Notes under the pieces: model-generated | What the model was told of the DNA's origin: nothing | Seen by the model: the letters and a program-made list of their open reading frames with translations, nothing else | Databases searched by the model: none | Virus record (IMG/VR): IMGVR_UViG_3300030438_000300 | Reading direction: 5' to 3' (one strand) | DNA length: 30,806 nt | Source: a virus | Taxonomy: Duplodnaviria > Heunggongvirae > Uroviricota > Caudoviricetes | Program-made: the position numbers and the translations under genes | Shown here: positions 3,261 through 21,218 of the stretch, one piece after another | How positions within the stretch are numbered: the stretch's first letter is position 1 | Layout of the letters: every line of letters starts with the position of its first letter

Positions 3261-3360
3261 ATGTAAGGAGAGATCAGAATTGCGTGGTTTAGTGGGTTGC
3301 ATCTATTTATTTTTCAATAAATACAATTGGTTATGTGTTTTTAGGTGGGGCGATCGTGAG

Positions 3361-3388
3361 GCAAAGAAAACCCGGCGCTGAGACCGGG
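3361..3388 (-). terminator. Intrinsic terminator immediately downstream of the RexB-like gene
   Basis: On the minus strand, stop TAA (3391-3389) is followed by hairpin CCCGGTCTCAGCGCCGGG (3388-3371) and TTTTCTTTG. Confidence 0.55.
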
Positions 3389-3880
3389 TTATTGTTGCTT
3401 GAGTTTTTCGTTATAAATCTGTTTCAGCTTTATTGGTATGAAAAAAGAGCATCCAAATGAAATTATGCTTAGCCAGCATATAATAAACTCAAGTGCCAGA
3501 CTCAGGTTGGTCACAGGCGGCTTGCTTGCTAAGATTTTACTGGTGTCTCCTGGTGGCAGCAGCATGTAGTAGAAGAATATTAAGCACAAGACTGTAAGAT
3601 AGAGGTAAAAAAGCATCATGTAACGAGAAAACCGAATTTCGAATTTCCTCTTAGTTGCATACTTTTCTGATCTTGATTTACCTTCTGTAAACGATGCTAC
3701 GTCTCCACTTGTGGTTATAACAAGTAACAGAAACCCTGTTAATATTGAAAATATATTTGCCACAAGTCCAAGCAACTCTTTGTTATATCTAACCTTATCA
3801 TGTAAATAATAAGTTAATACAAGAGAAAGGCAGATAAAAAAGATTATGGAAAAAATATAACTCCAATCTTTACCTCTCAT
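3389..3880 (-). CDS. RexB-position small integral membrane protein (4 predicted TM helices); candidate effector of a phage-exclusion system
   Basis: 163-aa ORF with four hydrophobic segments (YIFSIIFFICLSLVLTYYL, LLGLVANIFSILTGFLLLVITT, YMMLFYLYLTVLCLIFFYYMLL, LSLALEFIICWLSIISFGCSFFI). Strongly AT-rich. Same strand as cI and last gene of the cI-distal pair, as rexB is in lambda. No sequence similarity to lambda RexB recognised. Confidence 0.65.
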   Translation of the reverse strand: MRGKDWSYIFSIIFFICLSLVLTYYLHDKVRYNKELLGLVANIFSILTGFLLLVITTSGDVASFTEGKSRSEKYATKRKFEIRFSRYMMLFYLYLTVLCLIFFYYMLLPPGDTSKILASKPPVTNLSLALEFIICWLSIISFGCSFFIPIKLKQIYNEKLKQQ

Positions 3881-4868: not shown

Positions 4869-5522
4869 TCACCCAAACGTCTCTTCAGGCCACTGACTAG
4901 CGATAACTTTCCCCACAACGGAACAACTCTCATTGCATGGGATCATTGGGTATTGTGGGTTTAGTGGCTGTAGAAACATCTGACCGCTATCCCTGATCAG
5001 TTTCTTGAAGGTAAACTCATCACCACCAAGTCTGGCTATACAGAAATCGCCTGGCTCAACAGCCTGCTCAGGGTCAACCAGAATTAACATCCCGTCAGGA
5101 AAGCTGGGCTTGGAACCTGTTGGTGCGGTCATTGAGTTACCTTCAACCTCAAGCCAGAATGCAGAGTCACTGGCTTTTTTGGTTGTGCTTACCAATCTCT
5201 CCGCATCGCCTTTGGTAAAGGTTCTGAGTTCTGGAGAGAACATCCCAGCCTGAACATGAGAAAAAACAGGGTACTCATATTGTTTTTTAACTGGGGCCGA
5301 TGAGTATTCGCCAACAGGTGAAAATGTCCCGTCGTGGTTGAATGATATGTTATCAATACCAAGGTATTTAAACACCACACCAATATCACTAAGAGATGGA
5401 TGACGAGATCCGCGCAACCAGTGTCCAATCCCACCCTGCGTCATACCTAGCTCTTCGGCTAACTTCTCTTGAGTTATGCCGAGCTCTTTCATTCTGGATC
5501 TAGCCAGTTCATACCATTTCAT
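4869..5522 (-). CDS. cI: CI-type prophage repressor (XRE HTH N-domain plus LexA/S24-like C-domain)
   Basis: The C-terminal ~130 aa ([27 protein letters not shown]...[15 protein letters not shown]) are near-identical to the lambda cI C-terminal domain as recalled. The N-terminal HTH ([38 protein letters not shown]) is different. Start chosen at the second Met (AGGA at 7-nt spacing); Met 5528 or the ORF-track start 5570 are alternatives. Confidence 0.9.
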
Positions 5523-5528
5523 TTTCAT

Positions 5529-5638
5529 GTCCTTATTATTACGCTTTGTACTGGAACCATCCATGCACAATGTGTATTTTTACTTGTATTCGTAAAGTAC
5601 ATATTGTATTTTTTATTCGTGTTTACTATGGAGGGCAT
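5529..5638. promoter_or_regulatory. Candidate OR operator region with divergent pRM/pR
   Basis: 110-bp AT-rich intergenic between divergent cI and cro. Contains TTACGCTTTGTACT (5539-5552) and GTAAAGTACATAT (5592-5604), both recurring upstream of N. Confidence 0.55.
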
Positions 5639-10470: not shown

Positions 10471-10555
10471 AGTCAGAGATAACAATCAACTAATACTGTT
10501 TTGTTGATTTTTGCTTGTAATTGGCGTTCTGGTCTGATTTTTGTGGAGTAAGTTG

Positions 10556-10939
10556 ATGCGTGATATTCAGATGGTTCTTGAACGTTGGGGAGCGTGGGCG
10601 GCTAATAATCATGAAGATGTGACCTGGTCGTCCATTGCCGCCGGTTTTAAGGGATTAATTCCTTCAAAAGTAAAATCTCGCCCGCAATGTTGTGACGATG
10701 ACGCGATGATCATTTGCGGGTGCATGGCCCGTCTGAAAAAGAACAACAGCGATTTGCACGATTTATTAGTAGATTATTATGTAGTCGGTATGACATTCAT
10801 GTCACTGGCAGGTAAGCATTGCTGCTCTGATGGTTATATCGGGAAAAGGTTACAGAAGGCTGAGGGTATAATTGAAGGGATGTTAATGGCATTAGATATC
10901 CGGTTAGAGATGGATATCGTTGTTAATAACTCTAATTAA
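10556..10939 (+). CDS. quuD: Late-gene antiterminator Q (phage 82/DLP12 QuuD type)
   Basis: 127-aa product [33 protein letters not shown]...[18 protein letters not shown]... matches QuuD as recalled. GGAG RBS 8 nt upstream of ATG 10556. The ORF track begins at the upstream TTG 10541. Confidence 0.9.
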
Positions 10940-11128: not shown

Positions 11129-12211
11129 TTAGAACTGATACACCAGACCTACAGCGACGATGTCGTCGGTATCAATACCAGCTGTTTTGGTAAACTTACT
11201 ATCGTCAATTAAGTTGATTTTGTAATCAACAAAAGTGGACATGTTTTTATTAAAGTAGTAAGTAGCACCGACATCGACATACTTGACTAAGTCTCGGTCA
11301 CCATGAACACCAAGGTCTTTACCTTTTGACTGAAGGTAAGCAACAGATGGTCGCAGACCGAAGTCAAACTGATATTGTGCTACTGCTTCAAAGTTTTGTG
11401 CTTTGTTTGCAATATGGTTATTACCAAAAACGGTCATATTCTGAGTTTCAGAATATGTGGTAGCCAGATAGATATTGTTCGCATCATATTTCAGGCCTGC
11501 AGCCCATACTTCCGCATTTTTGCCGGAGGCATTGAATTTGCTCTTACCATAGGCGACCTGACCGTCAGTGCGATCTGATTTAGCATAGGTTGCACCCACG
11601 CCGAATCCTTCATACTCATAAGTAGTGGAGAAACCGAAACCATCACCATTGGCTTCAGTTACGTCAGTGCGGTCATTTTTACCCTGATACTGAGCAGCAA
11701 AGTTCAGGCCATCGACCAGACCAAAGAAGTCGTTGTTACGATAGGTTGCAACACCAGTGGTGCGACCAGTCATGAACACATCTGTTTGGGTCCAGGTATC
11801 GCCACCGAATTCTGGCAGAACGTCAGTCCACGCACCGATGTCGTATGCTACACCGTAGTTACGGCCGTAATCGATTGAGCCGTAGTCACCGAATTTCAGG
11901 CCTGCAAATGCAAGACGGGTTTTGTCTTTGGAGGAACCTTGAGATTCAGCGCGGTTGCCTTTGAATTCATATTCCCACTGACCGAAACCAGTCAGTTGAT
12001 CGTTGATTTGGGTTTCACCTTTGAAGCCAAGACGGGCATAAGTAGTATCACCATCATCTGCATCATTAGAGGAGAAGTAGTGCTTAGCATTAACTTTCCC
12101 GTACAGATCCAGCTTGTTACTGTCTTTATTATAAATTTCAGCTGCCTGAGCAGACATCGCCATCAGTACTGATGCAGCTACAGCAGAAATTGCCACTGTT
12201 AATTTTTTCAT
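11129..12211 (-). CDS. nmpC: Outer membrane general porin (OmpC/NmpC family), apparently intact
   Basis: 360-aa product with signal peptide [30 protein letters not shown]..., beta-barrel porin-like sequence and C-terminal ...VGLVYQF. Lies between Q and the lysis genes on the opposite strand, as nmpC does in DLP12. Confidence 0.9.
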
Positions 12212-14463: not shown

Positions 14464-14760
14464 TTATTGTGAGCAATACACACGCGCTTCCAGTGGAGTA
14501 TAAATGCCTAAAGTAATAAAACCGAGAAATCCATTTACGAATGTTTGCTGGGTTTCTGTTTTAACAACATTTTCTGCGCCGCCACAAATTTTGGCTGCAT
14601 CAACAGTTTTCTCCTGTCCAATTCCCGAAACGAAGAAATGATGGGTGATGGTTTCCTTTGGTGTTACTGCTGTCGGTTTGTTTCCAACAGTAAACGTCTG
14701 TTGAGCACATCCTGTAATAAGCATTGCCAGAGCGGCAGAAAACAACATTTTTTTCATCTT
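14464..14760 (-). CDS. bor: Bor lipoprotein (serum-resistance lysogenic conversion factor)
   Basis: 98-aa product MKKMLFSAALAMLITGCAQQTF...GIYTPLEARVYCSQ with lipobox LITGC, matching lambda/DLP12 Bor as recalled. The ORF-track upstream extension was not used. Confidence 0.85.
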   Translation of the reverse strand, partial: KMKKMLFSAALAMLITGCAQQTFTVGNKPTAVTPKETITHHFFVSGIGQEKTVDAAKICGGAENVVKTETQQTFVNGFLGFITLGIYTPLEARVYCSQ

Positions 14761-15140
14761 ATTATCCTGCATTGTTAAAAACGGCAGAATCCTATGTGAC
14801 AACAATTAAACGATAGTTAAATGGATTGATGAAAATTAAAACTATATAGGTGGATGCTCAGCCTATCGGAGGTAGTCAGGATTTGAATGTCAGTCTGTTG
14901 TCGGCATTCTGGCAATGCAATTTGGATAAAGCGGGGATTAAAAAGATAGAGGCGAGCCGGTCAGGTAGAAATGAATCAGGCTCAAAGTGAAGCGGAAAAG
15001 GTCTGTGGCACAAGCTGATGCAGCCATAATTACAGCCTGATGATTTGTGGAATGAAACATGTTGAACCTCCTTAATTGATGTTATTCGAGTGATGAAGGC
15101 ATTCTGTCCTTCTATAGTGTCCAGTAAATCAAACAGGAAA

Positions 15141-15162
15141 CTTGTCCAACGTGTTGGACAAG
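15141..15162. repeat. Perfect 10-bp inverted repeat CTTGTCCAAC-gt-GTTGGACAAG
   Basis: Read directly from the sequence, about 120 bp upstream of the HNH gene. No adjacent T-run on either strand. Confidence 0.6.
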
Positions 15163-15282
15163 CCTCTCCATTAGTGAGTTGTATTGATCACAACTCTACA
15201 AAGAATTCATTACTGGGTAGATGAAAATAGTTTCACTATGAATGGAGGAGGCTATGTCGGTGGCTTCTTCATTGGAGTACAT

Positions 15283-15633
15283 ATGCCCCCACGAATCCCA
15301 CGCGCCTGCCGTAAGCGTGGATGTGCAGGTACAACCACAGACAGTTCTGGTTACTGCGATAAACATCGTGGCGAAGGATGGGTACAGCATCAACGCGGAC
15401 TGAGCCGCCACCAGCGTGGCTATGGCTCGAAATGGGATGCCATACGTGCGCGCATACTGAAGCGTGATAATCATCTGTGTCAGAACTGCCTGCGCAATGG
15501 GAGAGCCGTTGAAGCCAGAACTGTGGACCACATCATTCCGAAAGCTCATGGTGGCACGGATGCAGACAGTAACCTGCAGAGTCTGTGCTGGCCCTGTCAT
15601 AAAGCAAAAACAGCGCGCGAACGCATCAATTGA
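15283..15633 (+). CDS. HNH endonuclease (terminase-associated, HK97 gp74-like)
   Basis: 116-aa product from MPPRIPRACRKRGCAGTTTDSSGYCDKHR... with HNH-type motifs DHIIPKAHGG and CWPCH. GGAG RBS. Immediately upstream of the terminase genes. Confidence 0.8.
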   Translation: MPPRIPRACRKRGCAGTTTDSSGYCDKHRGEGWVQHQRGLSRHQRGYGSKWDAIRARILKRDNHLCQNCLRNGRAVEARTVDHIIPKAHGGTDADSNLQSLCWPCHKAKTARERIN

Positions 15634-15780
15634 TAACAGTTCCCATCTGTAGGGGAGGGGCAGGTCAAATCTCTGCAACCCTGGCTGCTCAGTACCGCCG
15701 CCTGACCTTTCCTCGCATCGCCGCAGGTTCGAAAACTTTTTTTTGGAATGTGATTAAATGATTGATAGGTAAAACCGATT

Positions 15781-16263
15781 ATGTCAGGACCCCTGAAAAC
15801 CCCGCCACGCCTGCATTTGATACGAGGCAACCCCTCAAAGCGCCCCGTTAAAGACCCAAAAAAAACCGCTAAAAAGGATGAAAAATGTCTCCCTAAAATT
15901 CCGCAACATTTAGGGTCGCAGGGGAAGTACTGGTTCAGGCGAATGGCGGAAGAACTGAATGCGGAAGGGATCATTTCTCAGCTTGATGCGCGTGCACTCG
16001 AGTTACTGGTGGAAGCCTACACCGAATACCGGCATCACTGCGAAACACTCGATGTTGAGGGGTATACCTACCGCACGGAAACGCAGAACGGTGATGTGCT
16101 GATTAAGGCACACCCGGCTGCTGCGATGAAAGCGGATGCCTGGAAGCGGATCCGGGCGATGCTTGCAGAATTTGGTATGTCACCGGCAAGCCGGGCGAAA
16201 GTAAATACCGCCGGACCGGATGATGTTGATCCGCTGGCGGAGCTTTTAAAAGCGAGAGACTGA
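15781..16263 (+). CDS. terS: Terminase small subunit (P27 family-like)
   Basis: 160-aa ORF; its stop overlaps the large terminase start. Sequence pattern (KTPPRLHLIRGNPSKRP... ALELLVEAYTEY...) is consistent with P27-type small terminases. Confidence 0.75.
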   Translation: MSGPLKTPPRLHLIRGNPSKRPVKDPKKTAKKDEKCLPKIPQHLGSQGKYWFRRMAEELNAEGIISQLDARALELLVEAYTEYRHHCETLDVEGYTYRTETQNGDVLIKAHPAAAMKADAWKRIRAMLAEFGMSPASRAKVNTAGPDDVDPLAELLKARD

Positions 16264-18020
16264 TGGCAAAAGTGGCTGACGGGATCCGCTACGCCGAACG
16301 TGTTGTTGCAGGAGAAATTGTCGCTGGCGAATTTGTCCGTCTGGCCTGCCAGCGTTTTCTTGATGATCTGAAGTACGGCGAAGAGCGGGGGATTTATTTT
16401 AGTGAACCCCGTGCGCAGCACATCCTTAATTTCTACAAATTTGTGCCCCATGTGAAAGGGGCGCTGGCAGGCCAGCCCATTGAACTGATGGACTGGCATG
16501 TATTTATCCTCATTAATATTTTTGGTTTTGTCATTCCGCTGGTGAATGAAGAGACCGGGGAAGTTGTCATGCGCAGCGATGGCAGTGGACGCCCGGTGAT
16601 GGTGCGCCGGTTCCGGACGGCGTACAACGAAGTCGCCCGTAAAAACGCAAAATCAACCCTGTCATCGGGTATCGGTCTGTATATGACGGGGGCAGATGGT
16701 GAAGGTGGTGCTGAGGTGTATTCAGCCGCAACCACGCGTGATCAGGCCAGAATCGTGTTTGAAGACGCCAAAAATATGGTCAGAAAAGCCCGGTCGACAC
16801 TCGGGCGGTTGTTTGACTTCAACAAGCTGGCGATTTACCAGGAGCAGAGCGCATCAAAATTTGAACCGCTTTCCTCGGATGCAAACAACCTGGACGGTCT
16901 GAACATCCACTGCGCCATTATTGATGAGCTGCATGCTCATAAAACCCGTGACGTGTGGGACGTTCTGGAAACGGCAACCGGTGCCCGTCTGCAGTCTCTG
17001 TTATTTGGCATCACCACGGCTGGCTTTAACAAGGAAGGGATTTGCTACGAGCAGCGCGATTACGCCATTAAGGTATTGCGAGGCTATAACAGCGACGTGG
17101 AGGGCGCGGTAAAAGACGACTCCTACTTTGCGATCATTTACACGCTCGATGAGGGAGATGATCCGTTTGATGAAACGGTCTGGCAGAAAGCGAATCCTGG
17201 CCTGGGCATCTGTAAACGCTGGGATGATCTGCGTCGTCTGGCGAAAAAAGCGAAGGAGCAGGTCTCTGCGCGGGTGAATTTTTTTACCAAACACATGAAT
17301 GTGTGGGTCACTGCCGAATCTGCCTGGATGGATATGATTAAGTGGGAGAAGTGCGAATACATTGCTCCACAACATGAGCTGAAAACATATCCCATGTGGG
17401 TCGGCGTAGACCTTGCTCATAAGATTGATATCTGTGCGGCGGCAAAACTCTGGCGAACCGATAACGGACATGTTCATGCTGATTTTAAATTCTGGCTTCC
17501 GGAAGGACGGCTGGAGCGATGCTCGCGGCAGCAGGCAGAACTTTACCGGAAGTGGGCGGAGATGGATAAGCTCATCCTGACGGATGGTGATGTTATCGAT
17601 CATGCTCAGATAAAAAGTGACTTACTGGAATGGATTGGCGGTGAAAACCTCAGGGAACTGGGATTTGACCCGTGGAGCGCAATGCAGTTCAGCCTGGCAC
17701 TGGCTGAAGAAGGGATACCGCTGGTGGAGGTTCCGCAGACGGTCCGCAATCTGTCAGAGGCCATGAAGGAAACGGAATCACTGGTTTATGCCGGGCGTTT
17801 CCATCACAGCAATCATCCGGTCATGAACTGGATGATGTCTAACGTTACGGTAAAACCGGACAAAAACGACAACATCTTCCCGAATAAATCCACGCCTGAA
17901 GCCAAAATCGACGGCCCTGTTGCACTTTTTACGGCCATGAGCCGCTTTCTGGTAAATGGCGGGGGCGTGAATGACTTTCTGTCCACGCTTGATCCTGATG
18001 AGGACCTGTTAATTCTGTGA
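16263..18020 (+). CDS. terL: Terminase large subunit
   Basis: 585-aa ORF with ATPase and nuclease-region features, in the conserved terS-terL-portal order. Walker B-like IHCAIIDELHAHKT. Confidence 0.9.
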   Translation: MAKVADGIRYAERVVAGEIVAGEFVRLACQRFLDDLKYGEERGIYFSEPRAQHILNFYKFVPHVKGALAGQPIELMDWHVFILINIFGFVIPLVNEETGEVVMRSDGSGRPVMVRRFRTAYNEVARKNAKSTLSSGIGLYMTGADGEGGAEVYSAATTRDQARIVFEDAKNMVRKARSTLGRLFDFNKLAIYQEQSASKFEPLSSDANNLDGLNIHCAIIDELHAHKTRDVWDVLETATGARLQSLLFGITTAGFNKEGICYEQRDYAIKVLRGYNSDVEGAVKDDSYFAIIYTLDEGDDPFDETVWQKANPGLGICKRWDDLRRLAKKAKEQVSARVNFFTKHMNVWVTAESAWMDMIKWEKCEYIAPQHELKTYPMWVGVDLAHKIDICAAAKLWRTDNGHVHADFKFWLPEGRLERCSRQQAELYRKWAEMDKLILTDGDVIDHAQIKSDLLEWIGGENLRELGFDPWSAMQFSLALAEEGIPLVEVPQTVRNLSEAMKETESLVYAGRFHHSNHPVMNWMMSNVTVKPDKNDNIFPNKSTPEAKIDGPVALFTAMSRFLVNGGGVNDFLSTLDPDEDLLIL

Positions 18021-18167: not shown

Positions 18168-19394
18168 ATGCTTCTTGATGCTCTGTTTCGCAGTGAGCCT
18201 CTGGAAAATCCCTCGGTTCCGGTAACCGGAGAGGCCGCTGAGACGGATAATATTTTTGCCCGGGATGTGTATGTCAGTCCGGAAACATCCATGAAGCTGG
18301 CTGCTGTCTATGCCTGTATTTATGTTATTTCATCCAGTGTGGCTCAGATGCCCCTGCATGTGATGCGAAAAACGAATGAGCATGTTCAGCCTGCACGCGA
18401 TCATCCGTTGTTCTGGCTCGTTCATGATGAACCGAATGCCTGGCAGACCAGCTATAAGTGGCGGGAACTGAAGCAGCGTCATGTGCTGGGGTGGGGCAAT
18501 GGTTATACGTGGGTAAAACGTAATCGTCGTGGAGAGGTTACCAGCCTTGAATGCTGTATGCCATGGGAAACTACGTTACTTAACACCGGTGGGCGTCATA
18601 CTTACGGGGTGTATAACGAAGAGGGTGCATTTGCGGTAAGTCCGGACGACATGATCCATATCAGGGCGCTGGGAAACAATCAGAAAATGGGACTGAGCCC
18701 GATCATGCAGCATGCTGAAACCATTGGTATGGGAATGAGTGGCCAGCAGTATACCAGCGCCTTTTTTAACGGTAATGCCCGTCCTGCCGGTATTATTTCT
18801 GTGAAAAATGAACTGAACGAACAAAGCTGGGGCAGGCTTAAAAATATGTGGCAGCGGGCGGTGACAGCGCTTCGCAGCCAGGAAAATAAAACCATGTTGC
18901 TGCCTGCGCAACTGGATTACCGCGCTCTGACAGTTTCTCCGGTGGATGCTCAGATCATTGATATGACCAAGCTGAACCGGTCGATGATTGCCGGGATTTT
19001 TAATGTCCCGGCGCACATGATTAATGACCTGGAAAAAGCCACATTTTCGAATATTACGCAGCAGGCGATTCAGTTTGTTCGCTACACGATGATGCCCTGG
19101 GTTGCGAACTGGGAGCAGGAGCTTAACCGTCGCCTGTTTACCCGTACAGAACGGGCTGCCGGGTATTACGTTCGTTTCAACCTCACGGGGTTGCTCCGTG
19201 GGACCCCACAGGAGCGTGCGCAGTTCTATCACTTTGCCATTACAGATGGCTGGATGAGTCGGAATGAAGCCAGGGCATTTGAGGATATGAACCCGGTTGA
19301 CGGTCTGGATGAAATGCTGGTCAGCGTAAATGCAGCAAATCCGTTGAATAACTTTAAAGATACGAAAGGCAAAGAGGAAAAGAACGATGAATGA
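18168..19394 (+). CDS. Portal protein (HK97 family)
   Basis: 408-aa ORF with GAGGAG RBS, directly following terL and preceding the prohead protease. Confidence 0.9.
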   Translation: MLLDALFRSEPLENPSVPVTGEAAETDNIFARDVYVSPETSMKLAAVYACIYVISSSVAQMPLHVMRKTNEHVQPARDHPLFWLVHDEPNAWQTSYKWRELKQRHVLGWGNGYTWVKRNRRGEVTSLECCMPWETTLLNTGGRHTYGVYNEEGAFAVSPDDMIHIRALGNNQKMGLSPIMQHAETIGMGMSGQQYTSAFFNGNARPAGIISVKNELNEQSWGRLKNMWQRAVTALRSQENKTMLLPAQLDYRALTVSPVDAQIIDMTKLNRSMIAGIFNVPAHMINDLEKATFSNITQQAIQFVRYTMMPWVANWEQELNRRLFTRTERAAGYYVRFNLTGLLRGTPQERAQFYHFAITDGWMSRNEARAFEDMNPVDGLDEMLVSVNAANPLNNFKDTKGKEEKNDE

Positions 19395-19986
19395 CCGTGA
19401 AACGCGCTGTTACAGCGGGGAGGTGCGGGCGGAACAATATGATAATGCCCCGACCCACATTCTGGGGTATGGCTCGGTATTTAACAGTCGTTCAGAACCT
19501 CTGTGGGGATTTCGTGAAATCATCAAGCCGGGGGCTTTTGATGATGTACTGAATGATGATGTACGTGGCTTGTTTAATCATGATCCTAATTTCATTCTCG
19601 GACGAAGTTCTGCCGGCACGTTGTCATTGTCGGTGGATGAACGCGGTTTACGTTATGACATTGTTGCACCGGATACTCCGACTATTTGTGACCTGGTGCT
19701 GTCTCCAATGTTGCGTGGTGACATTAATCAGTCCTCGTTCGCGTTTCGTGTCGCCCGTGACGGAGAGAGCTGGTATGAAGACGACGAGGGGATTGTTATC
19801 CGGGAAATCACGCGCATTTCTCGTCTGTATGACGTCAGCCCGGTGACATATCCGGCCTATCAGGACGCAGACTCTGGTGTCCGCTCAATGAAAGCCTGGC
19901 AGGAAGCGCGGGCGAGTGGTGCGCTGAAGAAAGCTGTTAACGAACGAATGGCGCGTGAGCGTCTTTTGACCCTTCTTAATGCATAA
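19387..19986 (+). CDS. Prohead maturation protease (HK97 family, S78-like)
   Basis: 199-aa ORF overlapping the portal stop. Position and size are typical of an HK97-type protease. Confidence 0.85.
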   Translation: MNDRETRCYSGEVRAEQYDNAPTHILGYGSVFNSRSEPLWGFREIIKPGAFDDVLNDDVRGLFNHDPNFILGRSSAGTLSLSVDERGLRYDIVAPDTPTICDLVLSPMLRGDINQSSFAFRVARDGESWYEDDEGIVIREITRISRLYDVSPVTYPAYQDADSGVRSMKAWQEARASGALKKAVNERMARERLLTLLNA

Positions 19987-20000
19987 GGATACTACTGACG

Positions 20001-21218
20001 ATGAAACTTCATGAGATGAAGCAAAAACGAAACACCATTGCAAAGGATATGCGTGCACTGCATGAAAAAATTGGTGATAACGCATGGACTGATGAGCAAC
20101 GGGCAGAGTGGAACAGGGCGAAAGCTGAGCTGGATGCGCTGGATGAGCAAATCGCCCGTGAAGAAGAGTTGCGCCGTCAGGATCAGGCATATGTGGATGA
20201 GTCCGGGCCGGAAGAGCGCCAGAATAATGAGGCGGAGAACGGGAAAAAGGCGGTGGAAGAGAAGCGCGCTGCGGCATTTAACCGTTTTCTGCGTGCCGGA
20301 TTTGCAGAACTGAATGCTGAAGAGCGTAATCTGATGCGTGAACTGCGGGCTCAGAGTGTAACAACGGATTCTCAGGGCGGATATACGGTGCCCACGCAGA
20401 TGCGTAACAAAATCATTGACACCATGAAGGCTTATGGCGGGATTGCCAGTGTGGCGCAACTTCTGACCACATCAACCGGGCAGGATATCACCTGGTCAAC
20501 GTCTGATGGCACGACTGAAGAGGGCGAACTGCTGGCGGAGAATACAGCCGCAACGGAACAGGATGTGACGTTCGGGACCGCTATTCTGGGGGCTAAAAAG
20601 CTGTCATCAAAAATAATTCGTGTGTCCAATGAGCTGCTCCAGGACAGTGGGGTGGATATTGAATCTTATCTGGCAAACCGTATTGCCCAGCGTATTGGTC
20701 GTGGAGAGGCAAAATATCTGGTTCAGGGGACCGGAACGGGATCACCGTTACAGCCAAAAGGGCTGGCAGCGTCGGTGACGGGAACCATCCAGACTGCAGC
20801 CTCTGCCGCTTTCACCTGGAAAGAAATGAATGCCCTGAAACATGCTATTGATCCGGCATATCGTGGTGGGCCGAAATACCGCTGGGCATTCAATGATGCC
20901 ACATTGCAGACTATTGAAGAGATGGAGGATGGACAGAAACGCCCGTTATGGCTGCCGGATATTGCAGGCGGTACGCCGGCTACTGTGCTGGGGATCCCTT
21001 ATGTTATTGATCAGGCTATTGACGGGATTGGTACCGGAAAAAAATTCATTTTCCTGGGGGATTTCAACCGCTTTATTATTCGCCGCGTTACTTATATGGA
21101 ACTGAAACGTCTGGTTGAGCGTTATGCTGAGTTTGATCAGGTGGCATTTCTGGCTTTCCATCGTTTTGACTGTGTGCTGGAAGATGTGGCAGCCATCAAG
21201 GCGCTCACTGGCAAATAA
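20001..21218 (+). CDS. Major capsid protein (HK97 fold) with N-terminal coiled-coil delta/scaffold domain
   Basis: 405-aa ORF with AGGA RBS. N-terminal ~100 aa are highly charged and helical (EQRAEWNRAKAELDALDEQIAREEELRRQ), as for HK97-type delta domains. Confidence 0.9.
   Translation: MKLHEMKQKRNTIAKDMRALHEKIGDNAWTDEQRAEWNRAKAELDALDEQIAREEELRRQDQAYVDESGPEERQNNEAENGKKAVEEKRAAAFNRFLRAGFAELNAEERNLMRELRAQSVTTDSQGGYTVPTQMRNKIIDTMKAYGGIASVAQLLTTSTGQDITWSTSDGTTEEGELLAENTAATEQDVTFGTAILGAKKLSSKIIRVSNELLQDSGVDIESYLANRIAQRIGRGEAKYLVQGTGTGSPLQPKGLAASVTGTIQTAASAAFTWKEMNALKHAIDPAYRGGPKYRWAFNDATLQTIEEMEDGQKRPLWLPDIAGGTPATVLGIPYVIDQAIDGIGTGKKFIFLGDFNRFIIRRVTYMELKRLVERYAEFDQVAFLAFHRFDCVLEDVAAIKALTGK

What the first reader, a model, noticed from the sequence alone, without database searches (positions are those of the whole stretch)
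15634..15780. Candidate cos region between the HNH endonuclease and the small terminase
The gene order HNH endonuclease, terS, terL, HK97-type portal, protease and capsid is the HK97-like cos-packaging arrangement, in which the cohesive-end site lies between the HNH gene and terS. The 147-bp intergenic region contains GC-rich segments GGGGAGGGGCAGGTCA and ACCGCCGCCTGACCT with partial inverted symmetry (CAGGTCA vs TGACCT), followed by a T-run.
Basis: inference. Interest (0 to 1): 0.4.

Follow-up and report, generated by a model that had tools for sequence, protein, structure and literature searches.

The report
HK97-type cos site of a prophage
The 147-bp gap between the HNH nuclease gene and the small terminase gene is the DNA-packaging cut site (cos) of a common E. 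coli lambdoid prophage; it aligns base for base with cut sites mapped in related phages, so it is an ordinary member of a known kind.

Summary
Window 15634-15780 lies between an HNH endonuclease gene (true start probably 15283) and terS. These are followed by an HK97-type terL, portal, S78 protease and capsid gene.

The region aligns without gaps to the cos regions of HK97, SfIV/SfV/SfI, phiP27, Proteus phage Pm34, Edwardsiella phage EPP-1 and, by eye, Pseudomonas phage D3. Four independent anchors fall in the same register:
- the HK97 genome ends, a 10-nt 3' overhang CGCCGCCAAA;
- the SfI virion-end sequencing, TGCCCGCCCC;
- the cos feature annotated in the phiP27 record;
- the ends of the linear Pm34 and EPP-1 records.

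They predict the cohesive end at 15696-15705 (CGCCGCCTGA). The top strand would be nicked at 15705|15706 and the bottom strand at 15695|15696.

The anatomy has four parts: a conserved G-box (15652-15672), a spacer of free sequence but fixed length (15673-15692), the nick core, and a near-invariant block with the T-run (15716-15744). This last block swaps together with the TerS type and is the probable TerS site.

The module occurs in about 19% of complete E. coli genomes. The only open point is what the G-box does.

The parts
15283..15633 (+). HNH endonuclease gene (gp74-type packaging accessory nuclease), 116 aa from the ATG at 15283
   Evidence: Pfam HNH 3e-16. It is 90% identical to phiP27 L34, 76% to SfV orf53 and 37% to HK97 gp74, and all homologues align from residue 34 of the mechanical ORF.
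15652..15672 (+). G-box, GGGGAGGGGCAGGTCAAATCT: conserved upstream cos element of unknown role; left boundary of cos
   Evidence: Conserved in HK97, SfIV, SfV, phiP27, mEp235, Pm34, EPP-1, D3 and Klebsiella and Morganella phages. Mean major-allele frequency is 0.83 over 77 haplotypes. Expected 0.01 times by chance. Homology with PhiR49_2 resumes exactly at 15652 after an ~820-bp insertion.
15673..15692 (.). Spacer with free sequence but fixed length between the G-box and the nick core
   Evidence: Major-allele frequency is 0.61, like the flanking non-functional DNA, yet only 1 of 76 haplotypes has an indel here. In the 15 bp upstream of the G-box, 58 of 76 do. There are no gaps in the ten-phage alignment.
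15696..15705 (+). Predicted 10-nt cohesive end CGCCGCCTGA (cosN equivalent). Top strand nicked 15705|15706, bottom strand 15695|15696, leaving a 3' overhang
   Evidence: In register with the HK97 right end CGCCGCCAAA, the SfI mapped gap TGCCCGCCCC, the phiP27 cos-site feature CGCCCGCCCC, the EPP-1 record end TGCCCGCCTC| and the Pm34 record start |CGCCCCCTTA. The core TACCGCCGCC (15693-15702) has major-allele frequency 0.95.
15706..15744 (+). Right half of cos. The probable TerS-binding (cosB-like) site is the core 15716-15744, CATCGCCGCAGGTTCGAAAACTTTTTTTT, which includes the T-run at 15737-15744
   Evidence: It is the least variable non-coding stretch in 81 E. coli loci. It is shared only by phages with the same TerS type: mEp235, Pm34, Klebsiella and Morganella phages, and 26 genomes from Pantoea to Zobellella. 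SfV/phiP27 and HK97 carry a different sequence here. It sits where HK97 TerS binds: the minimal HK97 site is +15..+29, a G:C step followed by an A-tract (PMC11331095).
15781..16263 (+). terS, small terminase of the P27 / Terminase_4 family
   Evidence: Pfam PF05119 1.7e-25. 72% identical to mEp235 TerS and about 20-24% to SfV and phiP27 TerS. No detectable similarity to HK97 gp1.
16263..18020 (+). terL, large terminase of HK97 type
   Evidence: Pfam TerL_ATPase plus TerL_nuclease. 36% identical to SfV TerL and 28% to HK97 TerL. The only PDB sequence hit is HK97 TerL 6Z6D, 1.3e-35.
18168..21218 (+). HK97-type portal, S78 prohead protease and major capsid genes
   Evidence: Pfam Phage_portal 3e-100, Peptidase_S78 2e-40, Phage_capsid 2e-70.

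Best explanation
The region is the cohesive-end (cos) packaging site of an HK97-like, 3'-overhang cos phage that sits as a lambdoid prophage in E. coli.

Proposed mechanism
- TerS binds the conserved block just right of the cut, about +11 to +39 (15716-15744), which includes the A/T tracts.
- TerS recruits or halts TerL. TerL, helped by the adjacent HNH nuclease, makes staggered nicks at 15705|15706 (top strand) and 15695|15696 (bottom strand).
- This leaves the 10-nt 3' extension CGCCGCCTGA. Packaging then runs rightwards into terS, terL and the head genes and ends at the next cos.
- The G-box, 31 bp upstream across a fixed-length spacer, is a second conserved part of the site. It probably positions the nuclease complex or acts in termination.

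Status of each step
- Shown here: homology and register with mapped sites, conservation, the fixed spacing, and the swapping of the right half together with the TerS type.
- Inferred: the nick positions in this particular phage, TerS binding to the right half, and the role of the G-box.
For: 1. Gene context: HNH, TerS, HK97-type TerL, portal, S78 protease and capsid, in that order.
2. A gap-free alignment from the G-box through the nick to HK97, SfIV, SfV, phiP27, mEp235 and others.
3. Mapped or recorded ends all fall in the same register:
   - HK97 record ends ...GAC CGCCGCCAAA|GTTTGAA, with a 10-nt 3' overhang;
   - the SfI virion-end gap TGCCCGCCCC;
   - the phiP27 cos-site feature;
   - the EPP-1 linear record, which ends after TGCCCGCCTC;
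   - the Pm34 linear record, which starts at CGCCCCCTTA.
4. TerL matches only HK97 TerL in the PDB.
5. Footprinting over 77 haplotypes shows the G-box, the nick core and the post-nick block conserved, and the spacer variable in sequence but constant in length.
6. The right half changes with the TerS family, while the left half is 80% identical to phiP27, whose TerS is only about 20% identical.
7. In 25 of 26 genomes of other species that carry the nick core plus the right-half motif, HNH lies upstream, TerS starts 77-90 nt downstream and TerL follows wherever the contig allows.
8. The plaque-forming temperate phage Evi has a 98% identical TerS, so this module does package DNA.
9. The window's exact cos haplotype is the commonest among 81 close loci.
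Against: - No virion DNA ends exist for this prophage or for a near-identical phage.
- The Pm34 and EPP-1 record ends may have been placed by analogy rather than measured. Their papers were not available.
- TerS here (Terminase_4) has no detectable similarity to HK97 gp1 (hhalign probability 0.07%). The HK97 TerS-DNA structure can therefore be transferred only by position, not by homology.
- The T-run is at +32..+39 here, against +24..+30 in HK97.
- Part of the right-half conservation is ascertained by the search pattern. The unascertained evidence is the E. coli population set and positions 15706-15718.
- Whether this prophage copy can be induced is unknown.
Confidence: 0.88

Rival explanations
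1. The site is a genuine cos by descent, but this copy is inactive because the prophage is defective or the cos has decayed. The window carries minority bases at conserved positions: A15662 in the G-box, TGA rather than TAA at the end of the overhang, and C15730 in GGTTCGAAAAC.
For: Family consensus bases differ at these positions. Inducibility was not tested.
Against: The window haplotype is the most frequent among 81 close E. coli loci. terS, terL, portal, protease and capsid are intact full-length ORFs. The GGTTCGAAAAC variant is fixed in the whole E. coli subgroup, which includes records deposited as phages.
Confidence: 0.07
2. The GC-rich arms and the T-run form a hairpin or cruciform, or an intrinsic terminator, and this structure rather than protein-specific sequence is the functional feature.
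For: AGGTCA/TGACCT inverted pair with 35 nt between the arms, and a T-run downstream.
Against: It is one of eight 6-nt inverted pairs in 201 bp. No terminator is called on the + strand. Fold z-scores are +0.79 (DNA) and +1.33 (RNA). There is no Rfam match. The pairing bases are not conserved: G replaces A15662 in most relatives, and the CGCCCGCCAA allele destroys TGACCT.
Confidence: 0.02
3. The phage packages by a headful (pac) mechanism, or has a lambda-type 5' cos elsewhere, and this gap is only an untranslated leader of terS.
For: None specific. The intergenic position alone would allow it.
Against: TerL matches HK97 TerL only and no headful terminase. There is no lambda cosN beyond chance. 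The region is homologous to mapped 3' cos sites. Non-coding blocks here are conserved more strongly than synonymous sites of the flanking genes.
Confidence: 0.02

Closest known systems
Bacteriophage HK97 cos site (10-nt 3' overhang; gp1 TerS, gp2 TerL, gp74 HNH)
   Same: - Same layout: HNH gene, cos, terS, terL, portal, protease, capsid.
- G-box, 31-bp distance to the cut, and nick core ACCGCCGCC in identical register.
- TerL is homologous (28% identity; 6Z6D is the only PDB hit).
- An A/T tract lies downstream of the nick, where HK97 TerS binds (+15..+29).
   Different: - TerS belongs to another family: Terminase_4, with no similarity to gp1.
- The right half of cos is unrelated in sequence, and the T-run lies 8 bp further from the nick.
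- HNH is only 37% identical and sits 18 bp from the G-box (stop codon to first G) instead of about 320 bp from cos.
- The last three overhang bases are TGA, not AAA.
cos of the Shigella serotype-converting phages SfI/SfII/SfIV/SfV and of Stx2e phage phiP27
   Same: - Same TerS Pfam family (Terminase_4, called 'P27 family' by PGAP).
- HNH is 76-90% identical.
- The left half of cos is about 80% identical to phiP27.
- The 10-nt cohesive end was mapped in SfI by sequencing virion ends (TGCCCGCCCC) and falls in the same register.
   Different: - TerS is only about 20-24% identical and TerL 36%.
- The right half of cos differs (…TTTTTATACCCGCGAAAAATGAAATTT).
- The overhang allele is CGCCGCCTGA, although the SfV-like allele CGCCCGCCAA also circulates in the E. 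coli population.
mEp235 / Proteus Pm34 / Providencia PSTRCR_117lys / Klebsiella prophage-type packaging modules (Hendrixvirinae)
   Same: - TerS is 55-72% identical.
- The right-half motif CGCCGCAGGTTAGAAAACTTTTTT is shared almost exactly.
- The Pm34 linear record begins exactly at the predicted bottom-strand nick.
   Different: - These relatives carry a GGGG(A/T)(T/C)CCCC palindrome after the T-run that the window lacks.
- No HNH gene is annotated next to cos in mEp235, IME1369_02 or Pm34, and I did not search these records for one. In PSTRCR_117lys an HNH homologue does lie just upstream (tblastn 73.9%).
Lambda cos (cosQ-cosN-cosB)
   Same: Three-part logic: a cut site flanked upstream by a termination-type element and downstream by the TerS-binding region next to terS. 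A GGCGGCG core is present, but on the opposite strand.
   Different: - Lambda has a 12-nt 5' overhang, a gpA-type TerL and no HNH.
- No lambda cosN is present in the window.
- The resemblance of the G-box to cosQ is positional only.

Membership tests
HK97-like 3'-cos packaging site | Lies immediately upstream of terS in a module with an HK97-type TerL, portal, S78 protease and HK97-fold capsid | tested here: met
   Pfam assignments. TerL hits only HK97 TerL 6Z6D in the PDB.
HK97-like 3'-cos packaging site | A gp74-type HNH endonuclease is encoded next to the terminase genes | tested here: met
   Pfam HNH 3e-16. 37% identical to gp74 and 76-90% to the SfV and phiP27 HNH. 25 of 26 cos-bearing loci in other species have it upstream.
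HK97-like 3'-cos packaging site | Sequence homology, in register, with experimentally mapped cohesive ends | tested here: met
   Gap-free alignment to HK97 and SfIV/SfV. The HK97 ends and the SfI 10-nt gap both map to 15696-15705.
HK97-like 3'-cos packaging site | Virion DNA carries a fixed 10-nt 3' single-stranded extension at this position | not testable with these tools
   Needs virion DNA. There is only indirect support, from the ends of the Pm34 and EPP-1 records and from the Evi assembly breaking across this site.
HK97-like 3'-cos packaging site | TerS recognition site about 15-30 bp downstream of the nick, with a G:C step followed by an A-tract (PMC11331095) | tested here: inconclusive
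   A near-invariant block with AAAA and T8 tracts lies at +11..+39 and swaps together with the TerS type. However, TerS is not homologous to HK97 gp1 and binding was not measured.
Lambda-type 5' cos | The cosN sequence GGGCGGCGACCT and a gpA-type TerL | tested here: not met
   Only chance-level 2-mismatch hits, inside tail genes. TerL carries TerL_ATPase and TerL_nuclease, not a GpA-type domain.
Headful (pac) packaging | TerL clusters with the P22, Sf6, SPP1, T4 or P1 type terminases | tested here: not met
   No such PDB chain is matched even at E <= 10. The closest characterised relatives are the cos phages HK97 and SfV. No full TerL phylogeny was made.
Intrinsic terminator or structured RNA | A stable GC-rich hairpin directly before the T-run, or a match to an RNA family | tested here: not met
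   No + strand terminator, fold z-scores above zero, and no Rfam hit in 15634-15780.

The most novel reading that the evidence does not exclude
The G-box (15652-15672) may be a required, so far uncharacterised element of all HK97-type cos sites. It is kept one fixed distance from the cut: 31 bp from TCAAA to the first overhang base, about three helical turns. This holds from Pseudomonas D3 to E. coli and does not depend on which TerS family the phage uses. It could act like lambda cosQ or as a docking site for the TerL-HNH nuclease on the packaged side of the nick. The HK97 biochemistry read here mapped TerS to +15..+29 only and is silent on -54..-34. A related open point is the orphan copy of this cos in Pantoea sp. 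1.19, which has no terminase genes nearby and may mark a satellite that exploits these phages.
Probability: 0.4. Interest if true: 0.45.

Novelty: new member of a known kind. Interest (0 to 1): 0.22.

Why it matters
- It fixes, to the base, where the genome ends of a very common E. coli prophage family should lie. The module is in 1015 of 5426 complete genomes.
- This is useful for annotating prophages, for interpreting virome assemblies, which tend to break or misjoin here as in phage Evi, and for building cos-plasmid or transduction tools.
- The comparison also gives a clean natural experiment. The left half of cos (G-box and nick) is shared across TerS families, and the right half swaps with TerS. 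This supports the HK97 model in which TerS reads only the downstream side.
- It also singles out the G-box as the untested element.
- None of this changes current understanding of packaging.

Tried and rejected
- Hairpin, cruciform or terminator reading: rejected.
- Looking for physical ends in IMG/VR contigs that carry the right-half motif: none of the contigs starts at the predicted nick. Most are prophage-derived, so this is uninformative.
- The search for related loci with TerS gave only near-identical E. coli prophages. These served for population variation but not for depth.
- Profile comparison of this TerS family with HK97 gp1 found nothing. TerS against the PDB found nothing meaningful.
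- Papers on Pm34 and Kala et al. 2014 (PMC4000778) are not in the library. The basis of the Pm34 and EPP-1 record ends, and the original HNH data, therefore rest on secondary citation in PMC11331095.
- The antisense ORFs across the region (15196-15678 and 15597-15974, minus strand) have no Pfam match and are taken as spurious.
- No structure prediction was run, because it would not bear on the position of cos.

Full report
**1. The observation.**
The HNH ORF stops at 15631-15633 and terS starts at 15781, so the gap is 147 bp. The quoted strings are at 15652-15667 (GGGGAGGGGCAGGTCA), 15694-15708 (ACCGCCGCCTGACCT) and 15737-15744 (T8).

Pfam confirms the gene order: HNH, Terminase_4 TerS, TerL_ATPase plus TerL_nuclease, portal, S78 protease and HK97-type capsid.

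The HNH gene probably starts at the ATG at 15283 (116 aa), not at the mechanical TTG at 15184, because all homologues align from residue 34.

The claimed inverted symmetry is one 6-nt pair, AGGTCA/TGACCT, among eight such pairs in 201 bp. The region folds no better than shuffled sequence. It has no terminator call on the + strand and no Rfam match. The sequence elements are real; the symmetry is not meaningful.

**2. Homology to mapped cos sites.**
A megablast search of the region against phage records found phiP27, which carries a 10-bp 'cos-site' feature (CGCCCGCCCC). It also found SfIV and SfV, whose linear records end near this point.

Joining the right and left ends of the HK97 record gives ...GGGCAGGGGGGGGATCAAATCTTCAAAACCTTTGCCCCAAATGAC CGCCGCCAAA|GTTTGAATTTAACGCTAACCCGATTTTTTTAG.

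A MAFFT alignment of ten phages has no gap anywhere from the G-box to the nick. The set is the window, HK97, SfIV, SfV, phiP27, mEp235, two Klebsiella phages, Morganella IME1369_02 and E. coli 716R3.

Evidence on the ends:
- HK97 ends carry a 10-nt 3' overhang (Fig. 1 legend of PMC9410871; PMC11331095; PhageTerm gives Left 2047 / Right 2036, COS(3'), PMC5557969).
- The position numbering of PMC11331095 (T16, the G:C pair at 21, A:T pairs at 24-29) fits the record numbering. The top-strand cut is therefore the junction of the record ends.
- For SfI, direct sequencing of virion ends showed a 10-nt gap, TGCCCGCCCC (PMC3636060). SfIV is reported to have the identical cos (PMC3851460).
- The linear record of Edwardsiella phage EPP-1 ends ...GTAC TGCCCGCCTC|.
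- The linear record of Proteus phage Pm34, read in the terS direction, starts |CGCCCCCTTACCTCTTTTCAC and ends ...CTAGGAC|.

All of these fall in one register. In the window that register is 15696-15705, CGCCGCCTGA. The top-strand nick is at 15705|15706 and the bottom-strand nick at 15695|15696.

**3. The proteins.**

| Protein | Similarity found |
|---|---|
| TerL | 36% identical to SfV TerL, 28% to HK97 TerL |
| TerL | only PDB sequence match is HK97 TerL 6Z6D, E = 1.3e-35, even with the cut-off at 10 |
| HNH | 90% identical to phiP27, 76% to SfV, 37% to HK97 gp74 |
| TerS | 72% identical to mEp235, 55-62% to Pm34, Providencia, Morganella and Klebsiella phages |
| TerS | about 20-24% identical to SfV and phiP27 (same Pfam family) |
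| TerS | no detectable relation to HK97 gp1 (no Pfam family; hhalign probability 0.07%) |

It is not met.

**4. Anatomy from comparative footprinting.**
Two data sets were used.
- (a) 81 close E. coli loci from IMG/VR, with TerS at least 96% identical, giving 71 haplotypes over 15283-16263.
- (b) 77 distinct haplotypes that carry the right-half motif, plus 26 loci from other species in GTDB genomes.

| Element | Window position | Result |
|---|---|---|
| Pre-box DNA | 15637-15651 | hypervariable; indels in 58 of 76 |
| G-box | 15652-15672 | conserved; major-allele frequency 0.83 |
| Spacer | 15673-15692 | as variable as junk (0.61), but an indel in only 1 of 76 |
| Nick core TACCGCCGCC | 15693-15702 | major-allele frequency 0.95 |
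| Post-nick segment (not ascertained) | 15706-15718 | major-allele frequency 0.85 |
| Right-half core | 15716-15743 | almost invariant in the E. coli population; mean variability 0.007 for 15723-15742 |

The distance from TCAAA to the first overhang base is 31 nt in both the window and HK97 (my count). Pseudomonas phage D3 has GGGGTGGGGCGGGTCAAAACC, a spacer of similar length and a C-rich core upstream of terS.

In PhiR49_2 an insertion of about 820 bp separates HNH from cos, and homology to the window resumes exactly at 15652. The G-box therefore belongs to cos, not to the HNH gene.

**5. Mosaicism at the cut.**
The left half of cos goes with the HNH side: it is 80% identical to phiP27 over window 15620-15699. 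The right half goes with the TerS type. There are three TerS classes and three unrelated right halves.

Within E. coli there are two overhang alleles, CGCCGCCTGA and CGCCCGCCAA. The second is linked to left-side variants, and the linkage breaks at about 15705-15710.

This is what one expects if TerS reads only the downstream side. In HK97 the minimal TerS site is +15..+29, a G:C step plus an A-tract (PMC11331095). TerS bound there acts as a roadblock that triggers cutting by TerL, and cutting is stimulated by the HNH protein gp74 (PMC9410871, PMC10359639, PMC11331095).

I therefore assign 15716-15744 as the probable TerS site. This rests on position and co-variation and is an inference. The T-run is 8 bp further from the cut than in HK97.

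**6. Is the module functional?**
The temperate phage Evi has a TerS 98% identical to this one. Evi was isolated in a study that cultivated coliphages from E. coli strains and infant viromes, and that study describes its structural module as frequent in E. coli prophages (PMC6969025).

The Evi record lacks the equivalent of 15555-15736. In its place is an inverted copy of the 5' part of terS. I read this as an assembly artefact at the physical genome ends. That is weak, indirect support for ends lying here.

The HNH-cos-terS stretch is present in 1015 of 5426 complete E. coli genomes. The window's cos haplotype is the commonest of the 81 close loci.

**7. Context.**
The window is a complete-looking lambdoid prophage. 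It encodes:
- an S24/HTH repressor, 4869-5570 (-);
- the O and P replication proteins, and Q at 10541-10939;
- a porin moron, 11129-12211 (-);
- a P21-type holin, lysozyme, Rz and Bor;
- then HNH, cos, terS, terL and the head and tail genes, including an HK97-type tape measure.

It is not a capsid-forming satellite.

**8. Comparison and novelty.**
By every feature that can be tested in silico, this is a member of the HK97-like 3'-cos class. It combines an SfV/phiP27-like left half with an mEp235-like TerS and right half. Physical ends and TerS binding remain untested.

This kind of site is known, and phiP27 even has it annotated, so the finding is ordinary. The one point I could not find addressed in the HK97 papers read is the G-box with its fixed spacing. 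Older papers (Juhala 2000, Kropinski 2000, Allison 2002) could not be read and may already mention it.

**9. Verdict.**
- Observation: confirmed, except for the symmetry.
- Interpretation: supported and refined to base resolution.
- Confidence: about 0.88 that cos lies here; somewhat lower that the nicks are exactly at 15695|6 and 15705|6.

Noticed in passing
L223 about 3350-3470 (Pantoea sp. 1.19, NZ_MRBS01000001.1): An orphan cos of this family: a G-box-like run, ACCGCCGCCTAG and CGCCGCAGGTTAGAAAACTTTTTTT. tblastn finds no HNH, TerS or TerL within 3.4-4.5 kb on either side, whereas the other 25 genome hits all have HNH and TerS around the site (and TerL wherever the contig allows). Neighbours are a 146-aa ORF with a weak DUF5681 match and a TerS-like GNPNGRP motif, a 582-aa ORF with no Pfam family, and a GmrSD nuclease. 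It may be a cos-bearing satellite or a remnant.
   Followed up: partly
L221 (Escherichia phage Evi, LR597642.1) against window 15555-15736: The Evi record lacks the 3' end of HNH and the whole cos core. In their place is an inverted copy of the 5' part of terS, joined at the T8/A8 runs. This is most likely a misassembly at the physical genome ends.
   Followed up: partly
L222 (Escherichia phage PhiR49_2, PV340570.1) against window 15563-15651: An insertion of about 820 bp, with a 171-aa ORF on the opposite strand, lies between a diverged HNH 3' end and the G-box. The G-box there is the HK97-like variant GGGGGGGGATCAAATC, although TerS is 95.6% identical to the window's.
   Followed up: partly
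window 15696-15705 in 81 E. coli loci: Two cohesive-end alleles circulate with the same TerS: CGCCGCCTGA (HK97-like) and CGCCCGCCAA (SfV/phiP27-like). The linkage breaks right at the nick, which suggests a recombination joint at cos.
   Followed up: partly
window 15745-15760 against relatives: Most relatives have a GGGG(A/T)(T/C)CCCC palindrome directly after the T-run. The window and its E. coli subgroup have GGAATGTGAT instead. Its function is unknown.
   Followed up: no
window 11129-12211 (-): A phage-borne general porin gene (Porin_1, 1.9e-151) sits on the opposite strand between Q (10541-10939) and the holin. From memory, this is the position of the Lc/NmpC-type porin morons of lambdoid prophages.
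   Followed up: no
window 14464-14805 (-) and 15137-15166 (-): A Bor lipoprotein homologue (Lambda_Bor, 6e-30) lies downstream of Rz on the opposite strand. A terminator-like inverted repeat with a 13-pair stem lies on the minus strand just upstream of the HNH gene. Several related phages lose homology upstream of 15283, so this is a mosaic boundary.
   Followed up: no
window 15694-15702, minus strand: The nick core read on the minus strand (GGCGGCGGT) shares the GGCGGCG heptamer with lambda cosN (GGGCGGCGACCT), but in the opposite orientation relative to terS. This may be chance in GC-rich DNA. The full lambda cosN is absent.
   Followed up: no
literature (PMC9410871): The Fig. 1 legend gives 10-nt 3' overhangs for HK97. 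The Discussion says 12-nt 3' for HK97 and 10-nt 5' for lambda, so the two numbers appear swapped there. PhageTerm and PMC11331095 both give 10 nt for HK97.
   Followed up: yes
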